A DNA stretch of 64,000 nucleotides from Patescibacteria group bacterium (GCA_024239035.1 JANBVK010000001.1:42262-106261); one strand, 5' to 3'; positions 56 to 56,481 are shown, counted from the stretch's first letter. Notes: generated from the letters alone by a model not told the origin. Made by a program: numbers and translations.

Positions 56-421
56 GTGTCTTTTCCAATCATTGTTATAGCAGCTATAGGTTTTGCTGAG
101 CCAATTACAACGGGGACATCTGGAGTTGCACCCCACGCACACGCCCCTGGGTGGCTTATTATTCTTTCGTTATTACTTCCTGCACTCTTTTTGGATTTAA
201 AGAAATCCACAGGAGTTTTCTCCGCGGCACTGGCGGGTCTAATTTCAGGAGGAGTTCTGTATGGGTTTGCAACACTCTTTATTGATCCCGCTTTTCAGTA
301 TGGCGTTACAGAAGTTGTGACTGTCCTCATTGTAAGTTTCTTCGGTGGTTTGATAGCAGGGATACTTGTGAAAAGTGTTCTCAAGACTAAATTGTTTGGA
401 TCAGTTGAAAACTATACATAA
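56..421 (+). CDS. small hydrophobic membrane protein, hypothetical
   Basis: 121-aa ORF with several hydrophobic helices; no recognisable motif. Confidence 0.35.
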   Translation: MSFPIIVIAAIGFAEPITTGTSGVAPHAHAPGWLIILSLLLPALFLDLKKSTGVFSAALAGLISGGVLYGFATLFIDPAFQYGVTEVVTVLIVSFFGGLIAGILVKSVLKTKLFGSVENYT

Positions 422-525
422 AAAAATCCGTACTCTCTAAATCGAGCTTAGCCTGTATCCAGTTTATAGTTCTGAACATATCCTATAGGTTTATTTTAGA
501 ACTATAATAGTGTAGGATAAAAAGT

Positions 526-855
526 ATGAAAAAATTTGTATTTGTCTATTATGGCAAAATGAAACATGACGAGATGGACAAAGAAACCAGGAGTAAAATC
601 ATGAATAAATGGAAGGCTTGGTTTGGTTCATTCGGCGATAAGATAGTTGACGGCGGTAATCCGTTTGCTGATGGGGCCCAAGCAGTAACAGCAGGAGGCG
701 TAGACGCCATCCCAGAAGACAAGTGGCCCGCTAAAGGCTACACAATCATCAATGCCGAAGACATGAATGAAGCAACAGAAATCGCAAAAGGATGTCCGAC
801 ATTTGAAGATGATAGCGAAGGAGCTGTGCGCGTATATGAAGCTATGCCTATGTAA
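526..855 (+). CDS. YciI-like / dimeric alpha-beta barrel family protein (tentative)
   Basis: 109 aa; overall pattern (GYTIINAEDMNEATEIAKGCP ... VRVYE) resembles YciI-like small proteins; family recalled from memory. Confidence 0.4.
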   Translation: MKKFVFVYYGKMKHDEMDKETRSKIMNKWKAWFGSFGDKIVDGGNPFADGAQAVTAGGVDAIPEDKWPAKGYTIINAEDMNEATEIAKGCPTFEDDSEGAVRVYEAMPM

Positions 856-986
856 GCCAAGCGGTATATTAAAGTGAAAGTGTATGAAGCCCTGCGATAA
901 CATCAAGGGGCTTTTGTTTATATAACGGCGAGTAATTTTACCGGCCGAATGTGTTCTGTAGGGGGAGCAACTACTTAACATAATTA

Positions 987-1301
987 TTGCTTTGGTATAG
1001 AATATCATTAGCATTCTGGAGTAAACTTCCCTCAGAAATCATACTAAGAAAGGAGGCTCTTATGTCCGAGGTATCAGTCTTTCAATTCCTAGTTATTCTA
1101 TGTCTGGTAACTGGTTTCATCCGTACCTTAGTTTTTATTTTCCACCCCGCGAGTCCACACGATGACGTTGGTTTGACAGGCCCCGATATCTTTCTTTATT
1201 TTATCTTGGCAATATTGGGTGCTATATTCTGGCTTCCGGTCCGGACGTCTTACGGAATAGGTCGTTTTATCAAATTTTTACATGGTCTTCACCATGCATA
1301 A
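987..1301 (+). CDS. small membrane protein, hypothetical
   Basis: 104 aa, two predicted TM segments; hairpin plus T-run follows at about 1330-1370. Confidence 0.35.
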   Translation: MLWYRISLAFWSKLPSEIILRKEALMSEVSVFQFLVILCLVTGFIRTLVFIFHPASPHDDVGLTGPDIFLYFILAILGAIFWLPVRTSYGIGRFIKFLHGLHHA

Positions 1302-1423
1302 CTTGAGCTACAACCGCCCACGTGACACGGAAAAACCGTTGCTCATCACACAGGGCGGTTTTTTCTTTTTATGCCCCATCCCTCCAATTGCATTCAGTAT
1401 GAAGCGGGGTTATTGTTTTTTAT

Positions 1424-1867
1424 ATGAAAACAGGCATTGACCATATAGGCGTAACAACCGTTTTCTACTGCATAGACGGGAAGAGAAACTTTCTTTTTCA
1501 TAAGCGCAGCAAGAACTGTCGGGACGAACACGGGAAATGGGATTGTGGTGGTGGAAAATTAGAATTTGGTTCAACGTTGGAGGAGAATGTGTTGCGGGAA
1601 GTAATGGAGGAATATGGCTGCAAAGGAGAGATCCAAGAACAGCTGCCTGCCCATTCATCACTTAGAGAGTGGGATGGCGAGAAAATACATTGGGTTGCTA
1701 TTCCTTTTATAGTCAAAGTAAATCCCGATGAGGTAAGAAATAATGAACCAGAGAAGATTGATGAGATTAGCTGGTTTGGTTTAGATAATCTTCCGTCGCC
1801 GCTTCACCCTGCCGTGCAAGCTGAAATGGAGCGTTATAAAGAGCGGTTTAGGAAATATCTGAAATGA
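1424..1867 (+). CDS. NUDIX hydrolase
   Basis: Nudix box GGGKLEFGSTLEENVLREVMEEYG (GX5EX7REVXEEXG). Confidence 0.75.
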   Translation: MKTGIDHIGVTTVFYCIDGKRNFLFHKRSKNCRDEHGKWDCGGGKLEFGSTLEENVLREVMEEYGCKGEIQEQLPAHSSLREWDGEKIHWVAIPFIVKVNPDEVRNNEPEKIDEISWFGLDNLPSPLHPAVQAEMERYKERFRKYLK

Positions 1868-2496
1868 GCAAAAAGCAGAAGCGTGTCCTGTTATTTGACT
1901 TTGATGGTGTCATCGTAGATACCTTTGATTTGTGTTTGGGTATTAATAGAAAATTAGGCAGTTCGTCACTATCTGCTGACGACTATCGTAAGAGGTTCGA
2001 GGGAAACATCTATAAACATTTTGAAAAACAAAACATAGATATAGAACAAACTGATAATGCTTTCTTTAAACATTACAACCCTGAGCTATTACAATTTAAC
2101 CCCGTAGAAGGCATACAGGAAGTCATTAAAGAGCTTAGAAAACGATATACTCTCGTTATTATTTCTTCCACTATCAACAGTCCAATCCAAGCACATCTTG
2201 AGAAATATAACCTTGCGCAATATTTCGATAAAATATTCGGCAGTGATGTACATAGAAGTAAAATAGAGAAGATCAAAATGGTGTTTGAACAGTATAATGT
2301 TCAACCTAAAAACTGCATCTTCATCACCGATACACTAGGAGATATGCGAGAAGCAGAAGCCACAGGCGTGAGAGCGATTGGTGTAACATGGGGTTATCAT
2401 TCATTGGAAACGTTACAGAGAGGGAATCCTGTTGCTATCGTTCATAAGCCGGAGAATATTGTATCTGCGGTCAACGAGTATTTCACACACAACTAG
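1864..2496 (+). CDS. HAD-superfamily hydrolase (phosphatase)
   Basis: N-terminal LLFDFDGVIVDT (HAD motif I DxDG); ITDTLGDM region carries motif IV D; overlaps previous stop by 4 nt. Confidence 0.75.
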   Translation: MSKKQKRVLLFDFDGVIVDTFDLCLGINRKLGSSSLSADDYRKRFEGNIYKHFEKQNIDIEQTDNAFFKHYNPELLQFNPVEGIQEVIKELRKRYTLVIISSTINSPIQAHLEKYNLAQYFDKIFGSDVHRSKIEKIKMVFEQYNVQPKNCIFITDTLGDMREAEATGVRAIGVTWGYHSLETLQRGNPVAIVHKPENIVSAVNEYFTHN

Positions 2497-2571
2497 CTGT
2501 GAAACGGGTTCTAATATCGTCTAGTTGGGGGAGCCTTTTATTATTTGAAGTATCTTTGTTAGTATAATCTT

Positions 2572-2790
2572 ATGGAACAAGAAACAAACAATCACAACAA
2601 AACCCGTGCGGGGTGGTGTTGTGGCTGCAACACAAAAAGAGGTGCGCTCGGTTGGGGTATATTTTTCTTGATACTCGGAGGGTACTTTTTAGCCCAAGAG
2701 CTTGGTTATGTAAGCACAAGCGTTTCGGCATGGCCTGTCGTGCTTACAGCTTTTGGTATTTATCTCATTGTGAAAAACCTGGGAAAGTAA
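2572..2790 (+). CDS. small membrane protein, hypothetical; possibly leaderless
   Basis: 72 aa with 2 TM; TATAAT at 2562-2567 sits only 4 nt before the ATG. Confidence 0.35.
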   Translation: MEQETNNHNKTRAGWCCGCNTKRGALGWGIFFLILGGYFLAQELGYVSTSVSAWPVVLTAFGIYLIVKNLGK

Positions 2791-2802
2791 GTTATATTAT
2801 TT

Positions 2803-3975
2803 GTGGAGATACAGAAAATTTACATCGGGGCGTGGTTTCAGAGAACGCCTCTACACTTGTCGGAGATTTATGATTTCCTGACGGGCAAAGATTCCCCACT
2901 TGAACTCGATAAGAAAAAACTCAAGAAGTTACTGCAAGATCTTCAGATTCAGGAGCTTAAGCTGGTGCCGTCTGATCTCGATTATATCAATGTCTCAACT
3001 ACAAAGGGCATCAGTTTTAGAATATATGAGGATGGCTTAGTTCGGTTAGAAAAAGGGAACACAGAGTTGGCGCAGGATATCGAGCAACTTAGAAATTATT
3101 ACGAAAAAAAACTCTCGCCCGCGATAAGTTATCTTTTTATTTTGGGAGCACCCATACCGAAAGAACTCGCTAATATTAAGAACATTTATCCTTACTTCGT
3201 TGTGTTGCGAAATGCCGACAAGGAAGACATTTATAAAATAATTAAAGAGCACGGACAGAAAAAGCATTTTGAAATCCGCCAAAAGACATTTGAGGTGTAT
3301 CGAGGAGATAAGCTCTATATCATTAACAACCTTTCTGAAGATTTACTTTCGATTGAAAAGTTCATAGAGGAGAATATATTTATTCGCGAGTATAAAAGCC
3401 AACTTCACCGTTATTTAAACCTTCACAGAATTATTTGGGAGCGCATAGCGGACATTAAAGAAAAAGGAGAAATCAAGGGGCGAGACATTGGATTGTTTAA
3501 GAATAAGATGGAAGAGTATGACAAAACAATTAATTTGATTGATGCTCGTATTAACCAAATGGATACTTTTGTCTCGACGCGCAGCAGAGTGGTACAAGAT
3601 AACCCGTCCCTTAAGCCATTTCTTGAGATATTACAATTCAAGCACGAGACATTATCCGACACATTAAATTACATCAAGGATTTATGGAAAATGACACAAG
3701 AGTACGTCAAGTCCGCACTCAACATCTTCGCAGAGCTCCAAGCAAAAAGTACTGAGGGCGCAGTCAAGAACTTAACGGTAGTGACCTCGATGGGTGTCGG
3801 TGCGACACTGATCGGTCTCTTTACAAAGAAACTTCCCAGCTTAACATTCGATGGATTCGTTTACTTTCTTGTTGTTGCCGGGATCGGATATGCAGCTCAT
3901 AGGATAATAGCCCTTATTTACGCAAGGAAGAAATATTCTATTAAGGATATTAAAATCGCTAAAGATATTAAATAG
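2803..3975 (+). CDS. hypothetical protein, large soluble domain plus two C-terminal TM helices
   Basis: 390 aa; C-terminal TM1-loop-TM2 topology like CorA, but no GMN motif, so no transporter call is made. Confidence 0.5.
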   Translation: MEIQKIYIGAWFQRTPLHLSEIYDFLTGKDSPLELDKKKLKKLLQDLQIQELKLVPSDLDYINVSTTKGISFRIYEDGLVRLEKGNTELAQDIEQLRNYYEKKLSPAISYLFILGAPIPKELANIKNIYPYFVVLRNADKEDIYKIIKEHGQKKHFEIRQKTFEVYRGDKLYIINNLSEDLLSIEKFIEENIFIREYKSQLHRYLNLHRIIWERIADIKEKGEIKGRDIGLFKNKMEEYDKTINLIDARINQMDTFVSTRSRVVQDNPSLKPFLEILQFKHETLSDTLNYIKDLWKMTQEYVKSALNIFAELQAKSTEGAVKNLTVVTSMGVGATLIGLFTKKLPSLTFDGFVYFLVVAGIGYAAHRIIALIYARKKYSIKDIKIAKDIK

Positions 3976-4086
3976 GGTCGGTACTGGGATGAAATTCTAA
4001 TGGCGGGCGGTTTTCTTTATTGATAAAATAGCGTGTTTCGTTTAGAATGTTGGAGGTTCATCACACAACGCACATAGGAGGGGTTA

Positions 4087-4250
4087 TGCCGACTCTTGAA
4101 GAATTATGGCACGTAGTCGCAGAACCTTTGTTCAATGCGGCATTCGTGCTTCCTGTTATCTTCGTTATCTACCTTTTTATCACCATTATCTACGATTTTC
4201 TTATCTTCCTTGGTTTCATTTCAACCAAGAAAAAGAAAAGAAGTTCGTGA
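4087..4250 (+). CDS. small membrane protein, hypothetical
   Basis: RBS GGAGGGG 6 nt before ATG at 4087; hydrophobic stretch VLPVIFVIYLFITIIYDFLIFLGFI. Confidence 0.35.
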
Positions 4251-4610
4251 GGGAGGAAGAAAATGGTACATGAAGCATTAATGCGGGAACTCCCAAAGGA
4301 TCATGAAAGGGTGTCCGAAGACGGTATTTTCTACATTCGAGACAACAGTGGATCGTGGTCGGTTGTTGTTTTGGCTCCGGTCTTGGTTACTTGTGGAGGT
4401 GAAAATGGAAAGGGTAGAGCGACTCATCTCGCAAGGTGTTTCAATAATGTTTGGAATGAAGAAGTTGGAAAATAAACCGCCGGGTCATTATAAAATCCGC
4501 CAATAAAAAAGGGTCTGCTCTTTTGGCGGATTCTTTTTATATAAATAGCTTGTCCAGTGGGGGAGTAAACAAAAAACCGCTGCTGCGCTGTAACACGCGG
4601 CAACGGTAAT

Positions 4611-4850
4611 TTAGTTAAGGTTGGGTTGTTGTGGTCTGGGTAAAGAACATAGCGTGGATGGGTTAAGTGGCCACGGGGTAGGTAACTCACCCGGTGGCCC
4701 TGTAAGTTCAACAAGAACATCATCACGCGTGAACCCGATGACCAGATATATCTCCCCAAAAAAATCACCTTCTTTTACAACCATTACTTGTTGCCCACGA
4801 CGAAATCCAAACTTTGATTCTTCGCCTGTATCCTCAAAAGGATTGGTCAT
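4611..4850 (-). CDS. hypothetical small protein in GC-rich patch
   Basis: 79 aa; GAAAGG-like RBS before ATG; hairpin plus TTTTTT after stop at about 4560-4600. Confidence 0.35.
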   Translation of the reverse strand: MTNPFEDTGEESKFGFRRGQQVMVVKEGDFFGEIYLVIGFTRDDVLVELTGPPGELPTPWPLNPSTLCSLPRPQQPNLN

Positions 4851-5010
4851 AACAAACCTTTCTCATGTAGTGTTCTAAGAAAAATGTAGCAGAACTCTCT
4901 TTATTTGTCTATGAAATTGCTGTCAGAGAATTCCCCTCTAGCGACCCAGGTGTCTCAAATTCGCGAGTAGAAAAATCGTTCAAAAACCTTTACAATGTCT
5001 GAATAGTTTT

Positions 5011-5412
5011 ATGGAATTACAAGTCGGCGTAAAAGCACTGCTAAAAAATAAAGAAGGGAAGTATTTACTGCTTCGGCGGTCGCCGGAGAAGTACCCCGAG
5101 GTTGTCGGCAAGTGGGATATTGTCGGCGGGCGGATAGACCCCGGGTCGCATCTCTTAGAAAACTTAAAAAGAGAAATTAGAGAAGAAACCTCTCTTGAAT
5201 TGGAGGGAGAGCCGAAATTAATAGCCGCCCAGGACATTTTGCGCGTTTCCGGACGGCATGTAGTGCGATTGACCTACGTTGCCGACATTAACGGCGAACC
5301 GACGCTGGACGGGGACCATATGGAATTTAAGTGGTTTACAAAGGGTGAATTGGAAAATCTTGAGGACTTGGATGTATATTTTAAAGAGGTTTTAGATAGG
5401 GGATTGGTGTGA
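5011..5412 (+). CDS. NUDIX hydrolase
   Basis: GGRIDPGSHLLENLKREIREETSLELE Nudix box. Confidence 0.75.
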   Translation: MELQVGVKALLKNKEGKYLLLRRSPEKYPEVVGKWDIVGGRIDPGSHLLENLKREIREETSLELEGEPKLIAAQDILRVSGRHVVRLTYVADINGEPTLDGDHMEFKWFTKGELENLEDLDVYFKEVLDRGLV

Positions 5413-5426
5413 TAAAGTGGTAATGA

Positions 5427-6410
5427 ATGAACCAAGAATATAAAAAACTTAGAGTTGCGGTCTTAATGGGCGGGCCTTCAGAAGAGCACGAAGTGTCTTT
5501 GAAGAGCGGGGAGATGGTAGCAAATGTTCTGGATTCGGGTAAATACGAAATTAGAAAAGTTCTAATAAGCAAAGAGGGGGAGTGGGAAATTCTTCCTCAT
5601 CATTTGAAATCTTACGCCGACGTCGCTTTTATTGCTCTCCACGGGCCGTATGGCGAGGACGGTACCGTTCAGGACATGCTCGGCCAGGCGAACATTCCTT
5701 ACCACGGAACAGGTCCGCTTGAGAGCGCCTTAGCCATGAATAAATTTTTGTCTCTCCAACTTTTTCGGGACGCGGGGTTCGCCGTACCGCTTTCTTTCTT
5801 AATTACGGAGAAAGATTGGCAAAACGGACCTTCGGGCGTTTTGCGCCAGATTCAACACTATCTTGAGTTTCCATTCGTTGTTAAGCCGAATAATAACGGC
5901 TCAAGTTATGGGATAACCATCGTAAAGAATAAGAGCGATATCTCTCCGGCTTTTAATGAAGCGTTTAACGTTTCACAAGAGGTATTGATTCAAGAATACG
6001 TTGAAGGGAAAGAAGTTACCTGCGGCGTTTTGGACCATGGTTGGGCCGGCAGTGAGGTTGCTCTTCTCCCAACAGAAATCATTCCCAAGGTAAGCCACTT
6101 CTTTGACTACAAAGCTAAATATGACAAGGGTGGTTCAGATGAGGTTACTCCGCCCGAAGGAATGCCGGAACACACAATTCGTACCATTCAAAAAACCGCG
6201 CGGGAGATTCACAGGCTTGCGGGTTGTAAGGGAGTTTCTCGTGTTGATATGATTTTAAATAATCGCGGCCAACTTTTTATATTAGAAGTAAACACTCTCC
6301 CCGGACTTACGTCTGAAAGCTTACTGCCTAAAGCAGCTGAGGCAAGCGGGATTCCATTTACCACATTGCTTGACAGGTTAATTCATTCCGCGTTTCTTAA
6401 TTACTTCTAA
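5427..6410 (+). CDS. ddl: D-alanine--D-alanine ligase
   Basis: LRVAVLMGGPSEEHEVSLKSG ... ALHGPYGEDGTVQDMLGQANIPYHG; typical Ddl length and motifs. Confidence 0.9.
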   Translation: MNQEYKKLRVAVLMGGPSEEHEVSLKSGEMVANVLDSGKYEIRKVLISKEGEWEILPHHLKSYADVAFIALHGPYGEDGTVQDMLGQANIPYHGTGPLESALAMNKFLSLQLFRDAGFAVPLSFLITEKDWQNGPSGVLRQIQHYLEFPFVVKPNNNGSSYGITIVKNKSDISPAFNEAFNVSQEVLIQEYVEGKEVTCGVLDHGWAGSEVALLPTEIIPKVSHFFDYKAKYDKGGSDEVTPPEGMPEHTIRTIQKTAREIHRLAGCKGVSRVDMILNNRGQLFILEVNTLPGLTSESLLPKAAEASGIPFTTLLDRLIHSAFLNYF

Positions 6411-50003: not shown

Positions 50004-50223
50004 GAAAGAGATCACAGCATGTAACAGTGGTGGTCGATAAAGCTAATTAAAGACCTGTGAGTAGCGAAAGCGAAAGCAGGTCTTTCTGTTTTTTAAACCC
50101 GCCTTGGTCTTCCGATACTATGTATTGAAGTGCTGCCCCTCCGGAACGCTTGCCCGCCCGAAAGTTTACTGAAAGAGGGATATTGGGATTATTTTAGCAC
50201 CAAAAGGGAAACATAGATAAATT

Positions 50224-51147
50224 ATGTGGGTTTGCTACTATGCATACATGAATCAAAAAGGTTCTATAACATTGATCATAGTGGTGATTATTGCCGTTGT
50301 GGCTACAGGTGGTGTTTATTTTGCATTGAAAGGAAAACAACAAACAGCACCAAAAGATATTAGCACTAACAAAAAAGGGAGCGTTACCGTAGCAGGAAAC
50401 TCTGCGGTAACGCCGGAGATTCCTAAAAACGTGATAGAAAAGTATCAGGAATTAGAAAAAATATACGAACAATCTCTGGGTGCTACTTTATCATACTGTA
50501 CAAAAGGAAGTGAATCTATTTATGACGTAAGTGGAAATGGTGGATTTTCTGCAGTTTCGTTCTATTTTGATACCAATGGAAATCAATTAGCGGAATACAG
50601 ACGAGGTGATGTTATTATCCCTGGAAAAGAATTGCCAAAACCACCAATAAATATATTAGAATATGAGTGCACGGTGCTCAAAGAGTCGAAGAGTGGCGAC
50701 ATAAATATTCCAACCGAGGAAGAAAATATCCCTGAGGGTACGGTTGTAATCCGCGCTGGGGAAACTGAATCGGTTAACATAGGCACGGGTGACCAACTGA
50801 CAGTGCCGGTTGTAGTTGATGCGTCTGATATAGGCAATTTAAGTGTTGCCAGTGTGGATATTACGTTAAAGTGGAATCCTTCCGTTTTACGTTTTGTGTC
50901 TACCTCGCAGGGCGAGTTTGGTTCATTAACTATAAACGATAGTGAAACAGGAAACGGAGTAATTCGAGCGGTCACTTTCAACGCGGAAGGCACAACTCAG
51001 TCTTTCACAATGTTTGAAGTAAAATTCCAAGCCGAAAGCTCTGGTATGACAAATTTGGACGTGACGGTTAATGTTGTAGGCGATGAGTTTGGTATCAATA
51101 TTACAAGCGCAGCATCGTCCAGAGATTTGAGCGTGGTAGTGAATTAG
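50224..51147 (+). CDS. membrane-anchored surface protein with C-terminal cohesin-like beta-sandwich domain
   Basis: N-terminal TM (ITLIIVVIIAVVATGGVYFAL); C-terminal VVVDASDIGNLSVASVDITLKWNPSVLRFVSTSQGEF resembles cohesin type modules. Confidence 0.5.
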   Translation: MWVCYYAYMNQKGSITLIIVVIIAVVATGGVYFALKGKQQTAPKDISTNKKGSVTVAGNSAVTPEIPKNVIEKYQELEKIYEQSLGATLSYCTKGSESIYDVSGNGGFSAVSFYFDTNGNQLAEYRRGDVIIPGKELPKPPINILEYECTVLKESKSGDINIPTEEENIPEGTVVIRAGETESVNIGTGDQLTVPVVVDASDIGNLSVASVDITLKWNPSVLRFVSTSQGEFGSLTINDSETGNGVIRAVTFNAEGTTQSFTMFEVKFQAESSGMTNLDVTVNVVGDEFGINITSAASSRDLSVVVN

Positions 51148-51148
51148 T

Positions 51149-54100
51149 TTATTTCCTCCAATACACCTTAAAATTCTCAATTTCAGAAACTAACTCTTTT
51201 GCCGATTGGCCGTTGTACTGAATAGCTCTATCATCCACATATACATATGCAATGGGTTTCCCTGGGTTCTTTCCCTGCAATTCCAGATTGTGATTGATAA
51301 AATCAAATGGAATTGAAAACTTTTTGCAGTATTTTTCTAAAAATTCATTCCCCCGTGTTGAATGAATCAAGATCCGGTATCCCCTCTCCCTTAATGTTTT
51401 GATTGTCTCTACTACCTCCTGTATTGGCTCTTTAATATCGTCCGGGGACACGAAACCGGTATATTTAGCGATTGTTCCGTCAAAATCAAAAGCAATAATT
51501 CTTTCTTTAGGCACAGGGTTAATTCTACTATAACAGTCAAACGAGTGAACCGATACATTAGGGATTCTTTGGAATATTTCTTTGACTTCTGATAAATTCT
51601 TCGCCTTATCATTGTCAACAACCAGTAAAATCCCGTGCGACGCGCCGAAACCGTATATGTATCGGCTCATACTGACATACGAGGGAGATCGATCTATTTT
51701 TGTACCTTTGAGATCAGTACTGGAGGTGAGTTTAGTTTCGACCACAATGGGGCCAACGAAACCATATCTAACAAGGAAGTCTACCTTTTTACCGTCAAGT
51801 AGTTCTACCTCTCTATCTACATCAACTTCAAAGCCACGTTTTAACATAATTTGTTCGATTTTCGATTTGAGAGTCTTCTGAATAAGCTTCTCGTACGCCT
51901 GCTGTTTCGCGTCGTAAACCTTTTCACCAAGTATGAGGTCGTACGCGCCCTCGCCCTCAATCCACCGCCTCAAGTCTGTTTCCAGAGCGTCTTGAAGCTG
52001 TCTAAATAGGTCTGTAGAGGTTAATATCTTCTTATCATCATACGCTCGGGCATCATTGTATTTCTTTATTGCTTCTGAAATATTACGGGGTTTGCCTAAA
52101 TAGCCTAGATAGGACCGCCGGAGGTTTATCATCCGACTGGCAAGCCAATTCGCTCCGTCTCGGTCTTTCATTTCGGCAATTTTTCTCTCAAGCTGCCGCA
52201 GGGGATCGTAAACACGTTCGTCCTTTAGATTATCAAAGTATGCGTACACTATGCTCCAAAGATACTCCGCATACGCCTGAAACTCCTTGCTCCGGGCGAA
52301 TACACCCATGGCTTCCTCCAATAATTTAAGGTAGTCTGGTTCATAGCCATGGTGTTTGAGATCCATGAGTGGCTTAGCAAAACTCTTGCTGTGCTCTATT
52401 TCTTCTTCAAGACTATTTACTTTGTGCATGCCTGGGAGTCGTATGAATGCTGCTGCCCTTTGAACCACTTCACGCAACCGCCACTTGATTGCCTCTGCGT
52501 CACCCTGGGAAGTAATGAGGAGCCCATTGGCAATGTAGGCAAGTTTTTTCTCGTCCTCATTTTTACTTTCCTTGTAGAGGTTGAATATTTCTTTAAGGAA
52601 GGTGGGGTCAGAAGAAAGCGTACCAACGACGGTGAGTGATTGCTCCCGAGTGTATCTGTCGAGAGCGGATTCTTTAATGAAACCTTTTAGAATAGGGATA
52701 GCTTCAACGACATGATATTGCTCTACTGCCTCCACGAAGCTAGAAGTCATATGTTGCCAGAGATCCGATTTTCTACTTTTGTACACCTTAAGCACTCCCT
52801 CCATTTCTCCGGGCTTTATATCTTTTACTAACTCAAAGATAGTTTTGAGTTCGTCGTTGTAAGCAAAGGGAATGAAATTGAGGATATTCTGCCGAAAAGG
52901 GGTTATATCAATTTCAAGATGCTTTGCGGTAACGAGAGCGTCACCGAACACGAACACTGAACTACTGGTCGTATAAGTCTTGGAGCCGTCGTGTTGCGCT
53001 GTGATGGTAAGATCGTGCTTTACGGGGTCAACGAATTTGAAAATCGTACCTGTGATGAGTTCGGCAAGACGCTTTTTCTCATCGGTCGACACGAGGGGTT
53101 CTAGGCACTTGATATTTTTATTGTAAAACTCAAATACGGAATTACTGAATTTCCCTGGATTAGGTTCCAAAAGTGTCCGAAATTGTTGCAGGAGCTTTTC
53201 ATTCTGCATTTCGGTATGCGTATCCGGTTTTGCGCGTGCCTCCTCCCACTGCTTATATTCCTCGGAGAGCAGGGACCGGCCAGCTTCGTATATCTCATTA
53301 GCCCCTTCTCTTTTCGAGAATTTCATCCTTGACATGACTGAAGCCGCGGAGTCTTTCTCTCCCATTGCAATCATTACTTCGATATAGCGCGGCACGTCTT
53401 CTTTCTCAATAACCTCCGCAAAAAATCTGTGCGCGAAATACAGACCAGTTTTGCCATCCTCGCTTTTCTTTATACGCTCGACCATTTCGGTGACGAAATT
53501 CGGGTCGCCCCTCCGCAGAAGTTTCCACAGACCAACGATAAACGTGGAGTGCTCCGCGTCATGTGCGATGTTGTAGTTTACGGAGCGCACCAGCGTCTCC
53601 TTGCACAGCTTTTTTATTTCGTCGTCAAGAACAGCTTCGATGTGTTCAACAAGTACGTGGTCTTCATCCTGGAATATCCGCGTATCGTTGATGAACTCGC
53701 GCCGGAAGTTCTCATCTACGTTGTACGTTTTTAAAAAGCTCTCTATCGAAGCTCTTTTCTTTAATGCGAAAATACCGTACCTACCGTGGAATTCGTTTCT
53801 CCTGATAGCCTCGAAAAAGTAACCAAGGGATTTTGGATTTTCAGGATTGAGCTCCACACACATATCGAGAAATTCCCTCCTTACAAGCTCGTCCGACTCC
53901 ATGAGATTGGGCAGTTCATCTATGACCGACGGATCACGCAGCCATGTGAGCGCCAGGAGCGCGTGCCGCTGCAGCACGCCGTTTTCGTTTTTGTCGCCCG
54001 CGTACTCGATGAGTTTGCCGCGCCAATATGACCGATCTAACGAGACACCCCGTCTAAACAGGTAAGCGATCACGTAGACGATGTTTCCGAGCGGCACGAA

Positions 54101-55504
54101 ACGAGCAGCATTTTTTTCTTTATCCGCTTTTGTGATTCCCGCTTTAAGTTTTCCCTCAAGCGTGTTGTCGAAAAAGCTTGGTAATGCTGAAGTGAGTTGG
54201 CCGGGCAACCATTGCAGAGTTCGCTGATGGTAATCCATAGCAAGTATAAATATCTGACGTCGGAGTTCCAATGGTACGTTGCGCGGATCTACCCTACTTA
54301 GAAACACCAAGAAACCCTCGTCGATAAGCTTGAATTGTGTGCCGCGCAGGCCCGAAAAATCAACAAGTTGTCCGAGTAAATCCGGCCGCATGTCTACCAA
54401 GAACGTCAGCGCGTTAAACCATGTTGGGTACATTTCTTTAGCGTCAGGGTCGATTGCAAAGCCAGCCGCCGCCCGGTTTGGATCGGGAAAGCGCGATATC
54501 TCTTTGGCGGCGAGATACTCTTGAAACTCCGTATTATCAAACTCGACCGTGTCCACATTATTTTTCAGCAGAGATTTATCGAAGAAAATTTCAAGTTCAA
54601 TTTGTGTGAGAGCCACAAGTTTTAGGTCAGATTTTATTTCGTCGAAAAAAGTCATAAGCTCATCCTTAGAGATTACATTTGTTTGGTATATCTCCATGGT
54701 GAGGGCGAGTTTTTCCAGCACACGCTTTATGATGGCACGTTTGTCAGCATTAAGTTTCTTATCTTCGAGTTCAAGCTTCGAGTAAATGAAATACTCGAAA
54801 AGTTTGTTGCGTGAGACCTCAGCAGCGGCTGGGATCCCTTTTTCCTCCAAGAATTTCTCCAGATATGAAAGGTATCGAGGTATCTGTATAACGAGCATTC
54901 TATGACTGAAAGGCATAATCCGACCCAGCAACGCGTCTATGTCGCTATCGGAATGTTTCGCTGCTCGTAGATACTCCCGTACCTGCCCTTGAGTGAATGG
55001 AGAAATAGTTATGAAACGGTAGTTGGGAAATGACGTGGCGTGTTGGTTAATAAAAATCCACCGAGAGGACAAAAATATAGGTAGGTTGGGATACCTAGTG
55101 GAAACCTCCTCGATTTTTTGCAGAACCGCTGGAAACAAGCTTGACTGAACCTCGTCCAGAGCATCTAGTAAGAGCGCTTTTGGTGCTTCAGTTTCAGTCG
55201 TCACAAAAATGTCAATGCGATCCATGGCGTTTGGTTGTCGAAGACCAACCAGCTCCGTCACACACCCATCCGTATCAAGTTGATCCTTTATCTTGCCGAG
55301 AAGCATAGATTTGCCAACGCCCGGTTCTCCCACAATTAGAGTACGCTGGCCTTTAATAATATCTACAATTCCAAGGCGTTCCTCGTCGTCAAAAATTGAG
55401 ACTCCTTGGAATTTATCGTAAAACTCCTTAGCCTCGGCGAATATCGAGTAGATCTTTGTGATAGGGATGATGTATTTATCAGCACTATTAATTTTTGTAG
55501 TCAT
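51149..55504 (-). CDS. 1451-aa NACHT/STAND-type NTPase fused to C-terminal PD-(D/E)xK nuclease-like and HAD phosphatase-like modules
   Basis: Walker A GEPGVGKS; Walker B LLLDALDEV; FLSSR (TSR-like); about 900-aa helical repeat region; VDFLV...VVETK (D..E-x-K); IIAFDFDGT / ILIHST / GKP...YVYVDDRA (HAD motifs I-IV). Confidence 0.8.
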   Translation of the reverse strand: MTTKINSADKYIIPITKIYSIFAEAKEFYDKFQGVSIFDDEERLGIVDIIKGQRTLIVGEPGVGKSMLLGKIKDQLDTDGCVTELVGLRQPNAMDRIDIFVTTETEAPKALLLDALDEVQSSLFPAVLQKIEEVSTRYPNLPIFLSSRWIFINQHATSFPNYRFITISPFTQGQVREYLRAAKHSDSDIDALLGRIMPFSHRMLVIQIPRYLSYLEKFLEEKGIPAAAEVSRNKLFEYFIYSKLELEDKKLNADKRAIIKRVLEKLALTMEIYQTNVISKDELMTFFDEIKSDLKLVALTQIELEIFFDKSLLKNNVDTVEFDNTEFQEYLAAKEISRFPDPNRAAAGFAIDPDAKEMYPTWFNALTFLVDMRPDLLGQLVDFSGLRGTQFKLIDEGFLVFLSRVDPRNVPLELRRQIFILAMDYHQRTLQWLPGQLTSALPSFFDNTLEGKLKAGITKADKEKNAARFVPLGNIVYVIAYLFRRGVSLDRSYWRGKLIEYAGDKNENGVLQRHALLALTWLRDPSVIDELPNLMESDELVRREFLDMCVELNPENPKSLGYFFEAIRRNEFHGRYGIFALKKRASIESFLKTYNVDENFRREFINDTRIFQDEDHVLVEHIEAVLDDEIKKLCKETLVRSVNYNIAHDAEHSTFIVGLWKLLRRGDPNFVTEMVERIKKSEDGKTGLYFAHRFFAEVIEKEDVPRYIEVMIAMGEKDSAASVMSRMKFSKREGANEIYEAGRSLLSEEYKQWEEARAKPDTHTEMQNEKLLQQFRTLLEPNPGKFSNSVFEFYNKNIKCLEPLVSTDEKKRLAELITGTIFKFVDPVKHDLTITAQHDGSKTYTTSSSVFVFGDALVTAKHLEIDITPFRQNILNFIPFAYNDELKTIFELVKDIKPGEMEGVLKVYKSRKSDLWQHMTSSFVEAVEQYHVVEAIPILKGFIKESALDRYTREQSLTVVGTLSSDPTFLKEIFNLYKESKNEDEKKLAYIANGLLITSQGDAEAIKWRLREVVQRAAAFIRLPGMHKVNSLEEEIEHSKSFAKPLMDLKHHGYEPDYLKLLEEAMGVFARSKEFQAYAEYLWSIVYAYFDNLKDERVYDPLRQLERKIAEMKDRDGANWLASRMINLRRSYLGYLGKPRNISEAIKKYNDARAYDDKKILTSTDLFRQLQDALETDLRRWIEGEGAYDLILGEKVYDAKQQAYEKLIQKTLKSKIEQIMLKRGFEVDVDREVELLDGKKVDFLVRYGFVGPIVVETKLTSSTDLKGTKIDRSPSYVSMSRYIYGFGASHGILLVVDNDKAKNLSEVKEIFQRIPNVSVHSFDCYSRINPVPKERIIAFDFDGTIAKYTGFVSPDDIKEPIQEVVETIKTLRERGYRILIHSTRGNEFLEKYCKKFSIPFDFINHNLELQGKNPGKPIAYVYVDDRAIQYNGQSAKELVSEIENFKVYWRK

Positions 55505-55615
55505 ATTTTTACTTCATTAATCCTCCAATCCCCCACTCTAGAACACTATAAATACAAAAATATCCCGCTACAAGAGCGGGATATCAAACCATCCTAACCT
55601 CCTCGCCATAATCCC

Positions 55616-55654
55616 GAAATACGTATTTTAATACGTATTTAAATACGTACTTTT
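55616..55654. promoter_or_regulatory. three tandem AATACGTATT palindromes (12-13 bp period)
   Basis: aaatacgtatttt aatacgtattta aatacgtactttt, read directly, upstream of the STAND gene. Confidence 0.5.
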
Positions 55655-55689
55655 ATTATACCTTTCCAACCCCTCAACAAACCAGAGAA

Positions 55690-55800
55690 TGATATGACGC
55701 GTCATATCACCTCTTCCACCACTCTCCAGAAACAGTATGACATGTCATACTGTTCATCTTCACAACAAATAGGGGTGTGATGACATGTCATCACACCCCT
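55690..55800. promoter_or_regulatory. three perfect palindromes (20, 24, 30 bp) sharing core ATGAC-NN-GTCAT with centres 43 bp apart
   Basis: tgatatgacgcgtcatatca (55690-55709); aacagtatgacatgtcatactgtt (55731-55754); aggggtgtgatgacatgtcatcacacccct (55771-55800). Confidence 0.6.
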
Positions 55801-56062
55801 TTAAACCAACCATTCGCTAACCCACTACAAGAGCGGGTTATTTTTATTAATACTGGGCAGGGAAATCGAACAAAATAATTTGACTAGCAAATTATTTTTT
55901 TAAAACCCTCGGTTTTAAATCCGTTGCACTCATTCCTACACAGGGGAACCTCGAACTTTCCCCCGACCCCCTGCCTACCGGCAGGCAGGCCTTTCGTGTT
56001 CGAATCATTGCTGCCGGGTACTTCAACTCACTGCGCTCGCTCAGCACGGGCAGGGATTCTCA

Positions 56063-56305
56063 CTACTCTCTTTTAACTAAATCTAACTTCTTTTCTCTGC
56101 GCCAACCTTTTATCTGTGCCTCACGTTTTAATGCCTCATTCTTCGTCTTGAATGTTTCTGTGTAAATAATCTTTTCTACTTTATGCGATGCAGTATAGTG
56201 ACCACCAATCTTGTCTTTGTGTTCCTTAAGTCTCCGTTCAATATCATTCGTGATACCGGTATATAAGCTAGCGTCTTCACATTGAACAATGTAGACATAG
56301 TACAT
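56063..56305 (-). CDS. GIY-YIG nuclease family small protein (UPF0213-like)
   Basis: MYYVYIVQCEDASLYTGITNDIERRLKEH (GIY..YIG with R and E); 80 aa. Confidence 0.75.
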   Translation of the reverse strand: MYYVYIVQCEDASLYTGITNDIERRLKEHKDKIGGHYTASHKVEKIIYTETFKTKNEALKREAQIKGWRREKKLDLVKRE

Positions 56306-56410
56306 AATTTGAAAGAGGTCCTTCGGCTTCGCTCAGGACACTTCGCCTCGCGTTATTGTTGAAGATGGCTTGCACTGAGCGAGCCCTTTATTTAAGGGCG
56401 AGTCGAAGTG

Positions 56411-56481
56411 CTGCCGGGCAGGGATTCGAACCCCGATACCCAGGACCAAAACCTGGTGTCCTACCGTTAGACGACCCGGCA
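56411..56481 (-). tRNA. tRNA-Gln (anticodon TTG), no encoded CCA
   Basis: Minus-strand cloverleaf TGCCGGG...CCAGG-TTTTGGT-CCTGG...GGTTCGAATCCC...CCCGGCA; U1:A72 typical of bacterial tRNA-Gln. Confidence 0.75.

What the first reader, a model, noticed from the sequence alone, without database searches (positions are those of the whole stretch)
51149..55504. Giant NACHT/STAND NTPase with C-terminal PD-(D/E)xK nuclease-like and HAD phosphatase-like modules: candidate undescribed single-gene defence/conflict system
The 1451-aa product starts with a STAND/NACHT NTPase. Its motifs are Walker A GEPGVGKS, Walker B LLLDALDEV, and FLSSR where NACHT proteins carry the TSR motif. About 900 residues of helical repeat-like sequence follow. 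Near the C-terminus there is VDFLV...VVETK, a D..E-x-K restriction-endonuclease-fold signature. After that come the complete HAD motifs FDFDGT, ILIHST, and GKP..YVYVDDRA, which look like PNKP/GmhB-like subfamily IIIA. Known antiviral STAND proteins (Avs, bacterial NACHT families) usually carry effector domains at the N-terminus. Here the NTPase is N-terminal and two catalytic modules are C-terminal. A nuclease-plus-phosphatase pairing suggests nucleic-acid end processing, for example cleaving RNA or DNA and then removing a 3'-phosphate or 2',3'-cyclic phosphate. I do not recall this in a described defence system. Context supports an accessory, conflict-related role. The gene is monocistronic and lies next to a tRNA-Gln integration hotspot, near a GIY-YIG element, downstream of an unusually elaborate palindromic control region.
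Basis: partly seen in the sequence, partly recalled or inferred. Interest (0 to 1): 0.85.

Follow-up and report, generated by a model that had tools for sequence, protein, structure and literature searches.

The report
NLR-like nuclease fused to neighbour's phosphatase
This giant gene belongs to a mobile family of bacterial NLR-like (NACHT) proteins ending in a restriction-type nuclease, probably an anti-phage defence gene, and its "phosphatase module" is the neighbouring resident gene joined in frame in this one genome.

Summary
The 1451-codon ORF (51149-55504, minus strand) is real, and all three domain calls hold. It has a NACHT-type STAND NTPase, a restriction-endonuclease-fold (PD-(D/E)xK) domain with invariant E1232/D1242/E1256-x-K1258, and an intact small HAD phosphatase.

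The proposed nuclease-plus-phosphatase effector design is not supported. None of the 119 other listed homologues (46-73% identity) carries the HAD, and nothing suggests it among 298 library proteins holding this nuclease domain. Homologues end about 27 residues after ...SFDC, in a Lys/Arg-rich tail.

The HAD part is 88-89% identical to stand-alone 121-aa HAD genes of Patescibacteria. A relative's contig (L007) has the same HAD/cohesin-like gene pair, and its homology to the window starts 18 nt before the HAD start codon, which is GTG here and ATG there. So the island gene lost its basic tail and stop codon and now reads into a resident gene.

The core family (NACHT, HEAT-like solenoid, nuclease, basic tail) lies beside integrases, serine recombinases, prophage-like blocks, restriction-modification and Gabija-like genes, and occurs patchily across phyla. 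It is most likely a single-gene NLR-like abortive-infection nuclease. That makes it an uncharacterised clade of a known kind, only distantly similar to the NCBIfam antiphage NACHT proteins HyoA and EruA.

The parts
51149..55504 (-). Whole ORF, 1451 codons plus stop. It is the island gene (residues 1-1324) joined in frame to the resident HAD gene.
54305..55372 (-). NACHT-type STAND NTPase module (residues about 45-400: nucleotide-binding domain, helical domains and winged helix). Walker A is G59-S66 (55307-55330), Walker B is L111-V119 (55148-55174) and the sensor-1 arginine is R148.
   Evidence: Invariant G59, E60, G64, K65, D114, D117, E118 and R148. The best Foldseek pdb matches are NLRP14, NLRC4, NLRP3 and NOD2. 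Pfam NACHT scores 21.9 bits, below its cut-off of 26.7.
52061..54304 (-). All-helical HEAT/ARM-like solenoid (residues about 401-1148), the presumed sensor region.
   Evidence: The model is almost all helix at pLDDT around 90. Foldseek matches Kap121, CAND1 and importin-4. The family profile matches alphaRep HEAT designs at residues 505-600. This is the least conserved region, with pairwise identity 0.35-0.47.
51527..52060 (-). C-terminal PD-(D/E)xK (restriction-endonuclease-fold) domain, residues 1149-1326. The catalytic candidates are E1232, D1242 and E1256-x-K1258.
51515..51532 (-). Fusion junction. This is the 18-nt 5' leader of the resident HAD gene, read here as residues 1325-1330 (YSRINP). 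It contains a -10-like TAGAAT.
   Evidence: Homology to L007/L008 (90-92%) starts at 51532 and family homology ends at 51549. Alignment; promoter-like TTCACT-16-TAGAAT.
51152..51514 (-). Resident small cap-less HAD phosphatase gene (residues 1331-1451). It begins with GTG where its orthologues have ATG. All four HAD motifs are intact.
   Evidence: dN/dS 0.13 against L007
50224..51147 (+). Resident cohesin-like gene, convergent with the HAD. Its end lies 1 nt from the HAD stop codon. The pair is conserved in relatives.
55560..55990 (.). Palindrome-rich region upstream of the gene. It holds three ATGAC-NN-GTCAT sites 43 nt apart (55694-55705, 55737-55748, 55780-55791), three tandem 12-nt ATACGTAT units (55617-55656) and two copies of a hairpin (55561-55584, 55818-55841).
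   Evidence: none of this was found at the homologue loci fetched by then
56009..56481 (-). tRNA-Gln (56410-56481), the 80-aa GIY-YIG ORF (56063-56305) and a split copy of the tRNA 3' end (56047-56059 and 56009-18). This is the probable far edge of the variable region.

Best explanation
The gene belongs to a horizontally mobile family of single-gene bacterial NLR-like proteins about 1,340 aa long. The family architecture is an N-terminal NACHT NTPase, a HEAT-like helical solenoid, a C-terminal PD-(D/E)xK nuclease and a short Lys/Arg-rich tail.

By analogy with bNACHT, Avs and Upx proteins (inferred, not shown), the solenoid would recognise a phage- or element-derived trigger. The NACHT module would then switch or oligomerise with ATP. 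The nuclease would be released or assembled to cut DNA, which aborts infection.

In this Patescibacteria genome the gene sits in a variable spot between tRNA-Gln/GIY-YIG and a resident pair of genes (HAD and cohesin-like). A rearrangement, most simply a deletion, removed the gene's basic tail, its stop codon and everything up to 18 nt before the HAD start. The ORF now runs in frame into the resident HAD phosphatase gene.

The HAD is a passenger, not a family effector. The predicted product is a NACHT-nuclease carrying a C-terminal HAD in place of its basic tail. Whether that product still works is unknown.
For: Shown:
- 120 listed relatives at 46-73% identity are nearly all 1310-1410 aa long and cover only about 91% of the query.
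- The conserved core stops at ...SFDC (residue 1324).
- 102 of 117 homologues continue with a tail of at least 30% Lys+Arg, median 27 aa, which the query lacks.
- The HAD tail has 216 hits, and all 120 listed are stand-alone proteins (116-167 aa, mostly about 120-128), the best at 88-89% identity.
- GTG sits at the orthologous start position.
- L007 and L008 share 90-92% DNA identity with window 50133-51532 only. They have the same HAD/cohesin arrangement, but different genes upstream: DUF2779, GmrSD and a KAP NTPase.
- The exact fused ORF is found in two assemblies.
- The query keeps every family-invariant catalytic residue.
- The nuclease domain occurs in 298 library proteins; the 150 listed carry it at the C-terminal end of about 1,340-aa proteins or are fragments of such proteins.

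Homologue contexts:
- a tyrosine integrase with HTH_17 next to SmpB;
- a terminase and two methyltransferases, with differing downstream flanks;
- a serine recombinase, a C5 methylase with a MutH-like gene, an OLD+UvrD (Gabija-like) pair and a transposase;
- a serine recombinase inserted after dcw genes in a Saccharibacteria genome;
- AbiEii nearby.

The distribution across phyla is patchy: Patescibacteria, Saccharibacteria, Dormibacteraeota, Nitrospirae, Gammaproteobacteria, Bacteroidota, and Arcobacter plasmids.

Distant matches exist to the NCBIfam antiphage NACHT proteins HyoA (C-terminal region) and EruA (N-terminal region).
Against: - No experiment links this family to defence.
- PADLOC gives only P-loop-level hits.
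- One homologue lies among ordinary genes.
- The solenoid is fairly conserved for an immune sensor, at about 0.35-0.47 pairwise identity.
- A C-terminal effector sits far from the NACHT oligomerisation centre, so the activation geometry is unclear.
- The order of events (deletion or direct insertion) is inferred from a single relative's contig.
- The fused HAD keeps all its catalytic residues and has a low dN/dS of 0.13, so a gained role in the fusion cannot be excluded.
Confidence: 0.72

Rival explanations
1. The fusion is functional. The HAD would act with the nuclease as a second effector, for example by removing 3'-phosphates from cleaved nucleic acid. Alternatively, it would have been recruited as a new output or regulatory domain.
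For: - The ORF is uninterrupted and found in two assemblies.
- The HAD motifs are intact and dN/dS is 0.13.
- The HAD has weak similarity to PNKP-type phosphatase domains: HAD_PNKP, PNK3P and Pnkp1 4xrp.
- The start codon is GTG rather than ATG. A -10-like box ends only 7 nt upstream and there is no Shine-Dalgarno sequence, so separate translation may be poor and the fusion may be the main HAD product (inference).
Against: - None of the 119 other listed homologues carries a HAD, and nothing suggests one among the 298 nuclease-domain representatives.
- No HAD gene lies downstream of the homologues examined.
- The HAD is an ordinary stand-alone gene, common in Patescibacteria and found in varied contexts.
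- The junction lies exactly at the synteny break.
- The low dN/dS mostly reflects history before the fusion.
Confidence: 0.1
2. The fusion marks decay. The deletion disabled the defence protein by removing its basic tail and attaching a bulky domain right after the last nuclease strand. On this view the gene is an early pseudogene, and only the HAD part matters to the cell.
For: - The Lys/Arg tail present in 102 of 117 homologues is missing.
- Only about 8 residues separate the last strand of the nuclease model from the first HAD strand.
- Small Patescibacteria genomes lose DNA readily (general knowledge).
Against: There are 1324 codons without a stop or frameshift, and every invariant family residue is kept. 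No other sign of erosion was seen.
Confidence: 0.13
3. The family is not a defence system. It would instead be a NACHT-regulated nuclease with a cellular or mobile-element role, for example element maintenance, addiction, or DNA processing for the element that carries it.
For: - Conservation is high over the full length, with mean column identity about 50%.
- The gene often sits at the edge of prophage-like or recombinase-bearing blocks. That position also fits an element-benefit function.
- No defence model matches above threshold.
Against: - The architecture (NACHT, repeat solenoid, nuclease effector) is that of validated antiphage NLR-like proteins.
- Neighbours include restriction-modification and Gabija-like genes and AbiEii. 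An alternative cargo at the same site includes GmrSD.
- There are distant matches to antiphage HyoA and EruA.
Confidence: 0.05

Closest known systems
Bacterial NACHT (bNACHT) NLR-related antiphage proteins (Kibby et al., bioRxiv 10.1101/2022.07.19.500537)
   Same: Both have a NACHT NTPase module followed by a repeat region (HEAT/TPR/LRR type) and a restriction-endonuclease-fold effector. Both are single genes. The paper notes that effectors sometimes sit at the extreme C-terminus.
   Different: - There is no N-terminal effector, only about 45 residues before the P-loop.
- The nuclease is at the C-terminus, followed by a basic tail.
- This clade has not been tested, and no sequence-level match to a tested bNACHT was obtained.
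NCBIfam NF058534 'NACHT domain-containing antiphage protein HyoA' and NF058535 'EruA'
   Same: These are large (1430 and 1318 positions) NACHT antiphage proteins. Family members align with HyoA positions 1245-1383 over the nuclease domain and with EruA positions about 12-218 over the NTPase.
   Different: Scores are 22-37 bits against cut-offs of 1200 and 1000, so this is not an equivalog. I found no paper on either name in the library, so their mechanisms could not be compared.
Avs (antiviral STAND) families, e.g. Avs3/Avs4/Avs7 (PMC13581612; bioRxiv 10.64898/2026.04.30.721860)
   Same: These are STAND NTPases with a large helical sensor and a PD-(D/E)xK nuclease effector. They are single-gene pattern-recognition receptors that kill the infected cell on binding a phage protein.
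   Different: - In Avs the nuclease is N-terminal and is brought together by NTPase tetramerisation.
- Here the order is reversed.
- The NTPase resembles animal NLR NACHT domains, not Avs structures, in Foldseek.
- PADLOC Avs models do not match beyond the P-loop.
Upx (terminase-sensing defence protein; 9wuf)
   Different: Upx has no STAND NTPase, and its sensor is rich in beta-strands. There is no sequence similarity.
BT0820-type / PNKP-type cap-less HAD phosphatases (PDB 2obb; NCBIfam NF046079; TIGR01662 HAD-IIIA)
   Same: The tail has the four HAD motifs, is a small cap-less domain of about 120 aa, and its best solved relative is 2obb.
   Different: Scores are below the BT0820 (26.9 against 165) and HAD-IIIA (28.6 against 44.6) cut-offs. 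It belongs to a Patescibacteria-wide stand-alone family of unknown substrate. Nothing links it to nucleic-acid ends.

Membership tests
NACHT clade of STAND NTPases | Walker A GxxxxGK[ST] | tested here: met
   GEPGVGKS at 59-66. G59, E60, G64 and K65 are invariant in 117 sequences.
NACHT clade of STAND NTPases | Walker B followed by extra acidic residues (hhhhD[GA]xDE), and a sensor-1 arginine in a [ST]-[ST]-R strand end (definition from my knowledge of Koonin and Aravind 2000 and Leipe 2004) | tested here: met
   In LLLDALDE, D114, D117 and E118 are invariant. In FLSSR, R148 is invariant.
NACHT clade of STAND NTPases | Three-dimensional similarity of the nucleotide-binding, helical and winged-helix domains to solved NACHT proteins | tested here: met
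   The top 25 Foldseek pdb matches are NLRP14, NLRC4, NLRP7, NLRP3, NLRP9 and NOD2 and complexes containing NLRP subunits (SCMC), then SAMD9, with E from 2e-8 to 2e-5.
NACHT clade of STAND NTPases | Pfam PF05729 gathering score | tested here: not met
   21.9 bits against a cut-off of 26.7 for the query. Precomputed PF05729 and NPHP3_N hits are listed for many homologues, but mostly as faint.
PD-(D/E)xK (restriction endonuclease-like) nucleases | Alpha-beta-beta-beta-alpha-beta core fold | tested here: met
PD-(D/E)xK (restriction endonuclease-like) nucleases | Acidic residue at the start of strand 2 and (D/E)xK on strand 3 | tested here: met
   D1242 precedes strand 95-99 of the model, and E1256-x-K1258 lies on strand 102-111. 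All are invariant, as are E1205 and E1232.
PD-(D/E)xK (restriction endonuclease-like) nucleases | Metal-dependent nuclease activity | not testable with these tools
   This needs an in vitro cleavage assay with E1256A and K1258A controls.
HAD superfamily phosphatases | Motifs I (DxD), II (S/T), III (K) and IV (DD) | tested here: met
   D10, D12, T53, K86, D94 and D95 of the tail are invariant in 36 relatives.
HAD superfamily phosphatases | Pfam gathering score | tested here: met
   The tail alone scores 28.0 on HAD_2 (cut-off 23.8) and 21.7 on Hydrolase_3 (cut-off 20.9). Within the full protein the scores were below cut-off.
HAD-IIIA / BT0820 / PNKP 3'-phosphatase subfamilies | NCBIfam or Pfam subfamily score cut-offs | tested here: not met
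   TIGR01662 28.6 against 44.6, NF046079 26.9 against 165, TIGR01664 17.2 against 107.65, and HAD_PNKP 19.7 against 27.6.
Avs (antiviral STAND) | N-terminal effector, central STAND NTPase, C-terminal sensor | tested here: not met
   There is no N-terminal effector, because the P-loop starts at residue 59, and the effector is C-terminal. PADLOC Avs2 scores only 18 bits over the P-loop in one homologue.
HyoA / EruA antiphage NACHT proteins (NCBIfam equivalogs) | Whole-protein score above the curated cut-off (1200 / 1000 bits) | tested here: not met
   The best scores are 34.8 bits (HyoA, P0099) and 37.5 bits (EruA, P0241). The query scores 23.9 bits on EruA.
Anti-phage defence system (general) | Variable, island- or element-associated genomic context with known defence genes | tested here: met
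   Integrases or recombinases, prophage-like blocks, restriction-modification, Gabija-like genes and AbiEii lie beside homologues. Different cargo, including GmrSD and a KAP NTPase, occupies the same site in a relative.
Anti-phage defence system (general) | Protection against phage on expression | not testable with these tools
   This needs heterologous expression and phage challenge.

The most novel reading that the evidence does not exclude
The in-frame capture of a resident HAD phosphatase could be a working new effector or regulatory module. That would make this a natural, very recent example of a bacterial NLR-like protein gaining a new C-terminal enzyme domain by deletion-fusion with a host gene. 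More broadly, this family could be a main innate-immune sensor of the tiny-genome Patescibacteria, with an inverted order (NTPase first, nuclease last) that needs an activation geometry different from Avs tetramers.
Probability: 0.12. Interest if true: 0.6.

Novelty: new member of a known kind. Interest (0 to 1): 0.33.

Why it matters
The result corrects an attractive but wrong reading. The "two-enzyme effector" is a gene-boundary accident, and only comparison with relatives exposes it.

What remains is still useful:
- It defines an untested clade of bacterial NLR-like proteins with about 300 clusters at 50% identity. The architecture is fixed: NACHT, HEAT-like solenoid, restriction-type nuclease and a basic tail.
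- The clade is common in Patescibacteria, whose 0.7-Mb genomes carry few known defences.
- Here one gene takes about 0.6% of the genome.
- Because the effector lies at the far end from the NTPase, the family could show how NLR-like switches control a distal nuclease.
- The fusion itself shows how new domain combinations in immune proteins can arise.

Tried and rejected
- PADLOC, NCBIfam and Pfam on the full protein gave only sub-threshold hits. PADLOC on six homologues gave P-loop-level hits only.
- A sequence-profile search of the PDB with the family alignment found only HEAT-repeat designs and generic P-loops.
- Literature searches for EruA and HyoA found no relevant paper. The supplements of the 2026 STAND survey are not held, so I could not check whether this clade is among its 589.
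- tblastn against phage records found nothing relevant. Against plasmids it found only distant full-length homologues (about 25% identity) on Arcobacter plasmids.
- The three ATGAC-NN-GTCAT sites are absent from the homologue loci fetched by then. A metagenome scan for the paired sites returned mostly unrelated repeat arrays and nothing informative, so the scan was wasted.
- The Rfam scan of 49-58 kb found only the tRNA.
- The afdb50 fold library was unavailable. The viral fold library gave nothing specific.
- An assembly chimera was considered and rejected, because the same ORF is found in two assemblies.
- A second copy of the tRNA-Gln end near the HAD junction was sought as a far attachment site and not found.

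Full report

The ORF at 51149-55504 on the minus strand is uninterrupted and encodes 1451 aa. It is identical to MCP6719816.1, a hypothetical protein from a Patescibacteria metagenome-assembled genome on a 729-kb scaffold. The same ORF is also found in a separately assembled 5.7-kb Logan contig, so it is not an artefact of one assembler.

The gene stands alone. A convergent gene ends 1 nt from its stop codon, and a 560-nt non-coding stretch lies upstream.

All lie in columns that are invariant or nearly so in the family alignments.

**2. Domain tests**

Whole-protein scans against Pfam, NCBIfam and PADLOC gave only sub-threshold hits, so I tested each part separately.

- *Residues 1-1148.* I modelled these with a 117-sequence alignment (pLDDT 89.7).
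  - The best Foldseek matches in the PDB are animal NLR NACHT modules: NLRP14, NLRC4, NLRP3 and NOD2, with E from 2e-8 to 1e-5.
  - HEAT solenoids such as Kap121, CAND1 and importin-4 follow.
  - The family profile also matches designed HEAT repeats at residues 505-600.
  - With invariant K65, D114/D117/E118 and R148, this region is a NACHT-type STAND module (about 45-400) followed by a HEAT-like solenoid (about 401-1148).
- *Residues 1149-1331.* The model (pLDDT 85.5) has an alpha-alpha-beta-beta-beta-alpha-beta-alpha-beta order.
  - D1242 and E1256-x-K1258 lie at the canonical positions on strands 2 and 3 and are invariant.
- *The last 121 residues.* Scanned alone, these pass the Pfam HAD_2 and Hydrolase_3 cut-offs.
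  - They keep all four HAD motifs.
  - Their nearest solved relative is the small cap-less HAD 2obb.

**3. The HAD is not part of the family**

The database search returned 120 listed relatives at 46-73% identity. Apart from the query, they are nearly all 1310-1410 aa long and cover about 91% of it. Conservation stops at ...IPNVSVHSFDC (residue 1324).

After that motif, 102 of 117 homologues carry a short tail of at least 30% Lys+Arg, median 27 aa. The query has no such tail.

A full scan of 1.84 billion representative proteins with the nuclease domain found 298 proteins. The 150 listed carry the domain at the C-terminal end of proteins about 1,340 aa long, or are fragments of such proteins. 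The one long C-terminal extension I read (P0370) is not HAD-like.

The HAD tail on its own finds 216 proteins. All 120 listed are stand-alone proteins, mostly 120-128 aa; the best are 88-89% identical and begin MPKG(R/K)(V/I)IAFDFDG. In the window the corresponding sequence is V-P-K-E-R-I-I-A-F-D-F-D-G, with GTG at the orthologous start position.

**4. The junction**

The contig that encodes the 89%-identical HAD (L007, and its twin L008) has the HAD followed by a convergent cohesin-like gene that ends 1 nt away. The window has exactly the same arrangement.

DNA identity of 90-92% between that contig and the window runs from 50133 to 51532 and then stops. That is 18 nt upstream of the HAD start. 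Homology of the window to other family members ends at 51549. In the alignment, the shared 18-nt leader TATAGTAGAATTAACC(C/T)T precedes GTG in the window and ATG in L007.

Upstream of the leader, L007 has quite different genes: DUF2779, the type IV restriction enzyme GmrSD, an MFS transporter, a methyltransferase and a KAP NTPase.

The simplest reading is as follows. The interval upstream of the resident HAD is a variable, defence-rich spot. In this genome it holds the NACHT gene. A deletion or an imprecise junction removed that gene's basic tail and stop codon, leaving it in frame with the HAD. The stop triplets present in the leader fall in another reading frame.

The leader also holds a -10-like TAGAAT that ends 7 nt before the start codon, and it has no Shine-Dalgarno sequence. 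This suggests, as inference only, that the HAD is normally made from a near-leaderless mRNA. The ATG-to-GTG change may therefore weaken its separate translation.

The HAD is still under purifying selection overall (dN/dS 0.13 against L007), as expected for a resident gene.

**5. What the core family is**

The family has one fixed architecture and is patchily spread.
- Named sources include Patescibacteria, Pacebacteria, Dormibacteraeota and a Nitrosopumilus bin.
- Genome hits include Saccharibacteria (59%), Nitrospirae (39%), Gammaproteobacteria (37%) and several Bacteroidota, among them Chitinophaga arvensicola WP_089904791.1 (24-29%).
- Distant full-length homologues (about 25%) lie on Arcobacter plasmids.

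Its neighbours differ from locus to locus and are typical of mobile elements and defence islands:
- a tyrosine integrase with HTH_17 next to SmpB;
- a terminase, two N6/N4 methyltransferases and a 209-aa protein, a block kept in three loci whose downstream flanks differ;
- a serine recombinase, a C5 methylase with a MutH-like nuclease, an OLD-family ATPase with a UvrD helicase (Gabija-like) and a transposase;
- a 567-aa serine recombinase inserted after dcw genes in a Saccharibacteria genome;
- AbiEii nearby.

One locus looks ordinary.

**6. Likely mechanism (inferred)**

The mechanism is inferred from studied bacterial NLR-like proteins. These have a helical sensor that binds a phage protein, a STAND NTPase that switches or oligomerises, and a nuclease effector that kills the infected cell.

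By that analogy, the solenoid is the sensor, NACHT is the ATP-dependent switch, and the PD-(D/E)xK domain with its basic tail is the DNA-cutting output.

Shown here:
- the folds;
- the conserved catalytic residues;
- the mobile context.

Not shown:
- the trigger;
- oligomerisation;
- the substrate;
- any protection.

The effector lies at the opposite end from the NTPase. Activation may therefore work by relief of autoinhibition, as suggested for the STAND-less Upx protein, which has a sensor followed by a C-terminal nuclease. That would differ from Avs proteins, in which N-terminal nuclease domains are clustered.

**7. Comparison with known systems**

This is the same kind of protein as the bacterial NACHT proteins. 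[quoted passage not shown]

The family is not an Avs by architecture or by model. It is not an equivalog of NCBIfam's antiphage NACHT proteins HyoA or EruA: the scores are at most 37 bits against cut-offs of 1200 and 1000. HyoA's C-terminal region does, however, align with this nuclease domain.

Precomputed Pfam annotation gives weak or faint hits to PF28130 (DUF8371) in many members. That model is not in the local Pfam copy, so I could not place it on the protein.

I could not check whether the clade is among the 589 STAND clades of Lee et al. 2026, because their tables are not held.

**8. Verdict**

- Right: the domains and the accessory, defence-like nature of the gene.
- Wrong: the idea of a nuclease-plus-phosphatase design.

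The finding is a new member of a known kind (an uncharacterised clade of bacterial NLR-like nuclease proteins) with a one-off in-frame fusion to a resident HAD gene. Interest is moderate to low. The family is worth testing, especially as a defence of Patescibacteria. The feature that made the finding look exceptional has an ordinary explanation.

**9. Upstream region**

Three ATGAC-NN-GTCAT sites lie exactly 43 nt apart, each inside a perfect palindrome of 20-30 nt. That is 3 sites where 0.07 are expected by chance in the window. The region also has three tandem ATACGTAT units and two copies of a hairpin, one of which is followed by a T-run about 50 nt before the ATG.

None of this is found at the other family loci fetched by then, so it is a local feature and not a family one. 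It remains unexplained.

Noticed in passing
window 56009-56481: The 80-aa GIY-YIG ORF (56063-56305, minus strand) is bracketed by the 3' end of tRNA-Gln and a split copy of that end. GAATCCCTGCCCG follows directly after the ORF's stop codon (56047-56059), and CCCGGCAGCA lies 28 nt further on (56009-56018). The 13-mer occurs only at these two places in 64 kb, where 0.04 are expected. This looks like the scar of a small insertion at the tRNA, or an old attachment site.
   Followed up: partly
window 55694-55791: Three palindromic sites ATGAC(AT/GC)GTCAT lie exactly 43 nt apart, each inside a perfect palindrome of 20, 24 or 30 nt. Three sites are found where 0.07 are expected. They look like operators for a dimeric DNA-binding protein, but no regulator gene is nearby. 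They are absent from the homologue loci fetched by then.
   Followed up: partly
window 55561-55656 and 55818-55841: Three tandem 12-nt units containing ATACGTAT lie at 55617-55656. Two copies of the hairpin CCCGCTCTTGTAG(C/T)GGG are also present. The copy at 55561-55584 is followed by a T-run and lies about 50 nt upstream of the ATG, so it resembles a terminator or attenuator in front of the gene.
   Followed up: no
window 51515-51549; L007 7983-8003: The HAD gene's 18-nt leader has a -10-like TAGAAT that ends 7 nt before the start codon, and it has no Shine-Dalgarno sequence, in both the window and the relative. This suggests a near-leaderless mRNA. The start is ATG in the relative and GTG here.
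   Followed up: partly
L007 1-7907: In the relative, the site upstream of the same HAD gene holds a KAP-family NTPase (over 1000 aa), a methyltransferase, an MFS transporter, GmrSD (a type IV restriction enzyme) and DUF2779. So the spot is a hot spot for defence cargo in this lineage.
   Followed up: partly
homologues P0002-P0120, C-terminal ends: Nearly all family members end in a 16-41-aa tail with about 42% Lys+Arg and almost no acidic residues, directly after the nuclease domain. It is likely a nucleic-acid-binding or regulatory tail. It is missing from the window's protein.
   Followed up: partly
L003, L004, L018 (positions about 200-6000): The block DUF4352 - large terminase - 130-aa ORF - two N6/N4 methyltransferases - 209-aa protein with a weak Trans_reg_C hit precedes the NACHT gene in three loci whose downstream flanks differ. 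The gene therefore sits at the edge of a prophage-like element.
   Followed up: partly
L019 11817-17983: Next to one homologue lie a serine recombinase, a C5 DNA methylase with a MutH-like nuclease, and an OLD-family ATPase with a UvrD-type helicase (a Gabija-like pair), followed by a transposase. This is a compact defence island.
   Followed up: no
L024 3300-3961 and L033: A metagenome contig carries a 43-nt tandem repeat that contains ATGACATGTCAT. It has the same period as the spacing of the window's sites but an otherwise unrelated sequence. This is probably coincidence.
   Followed up: no
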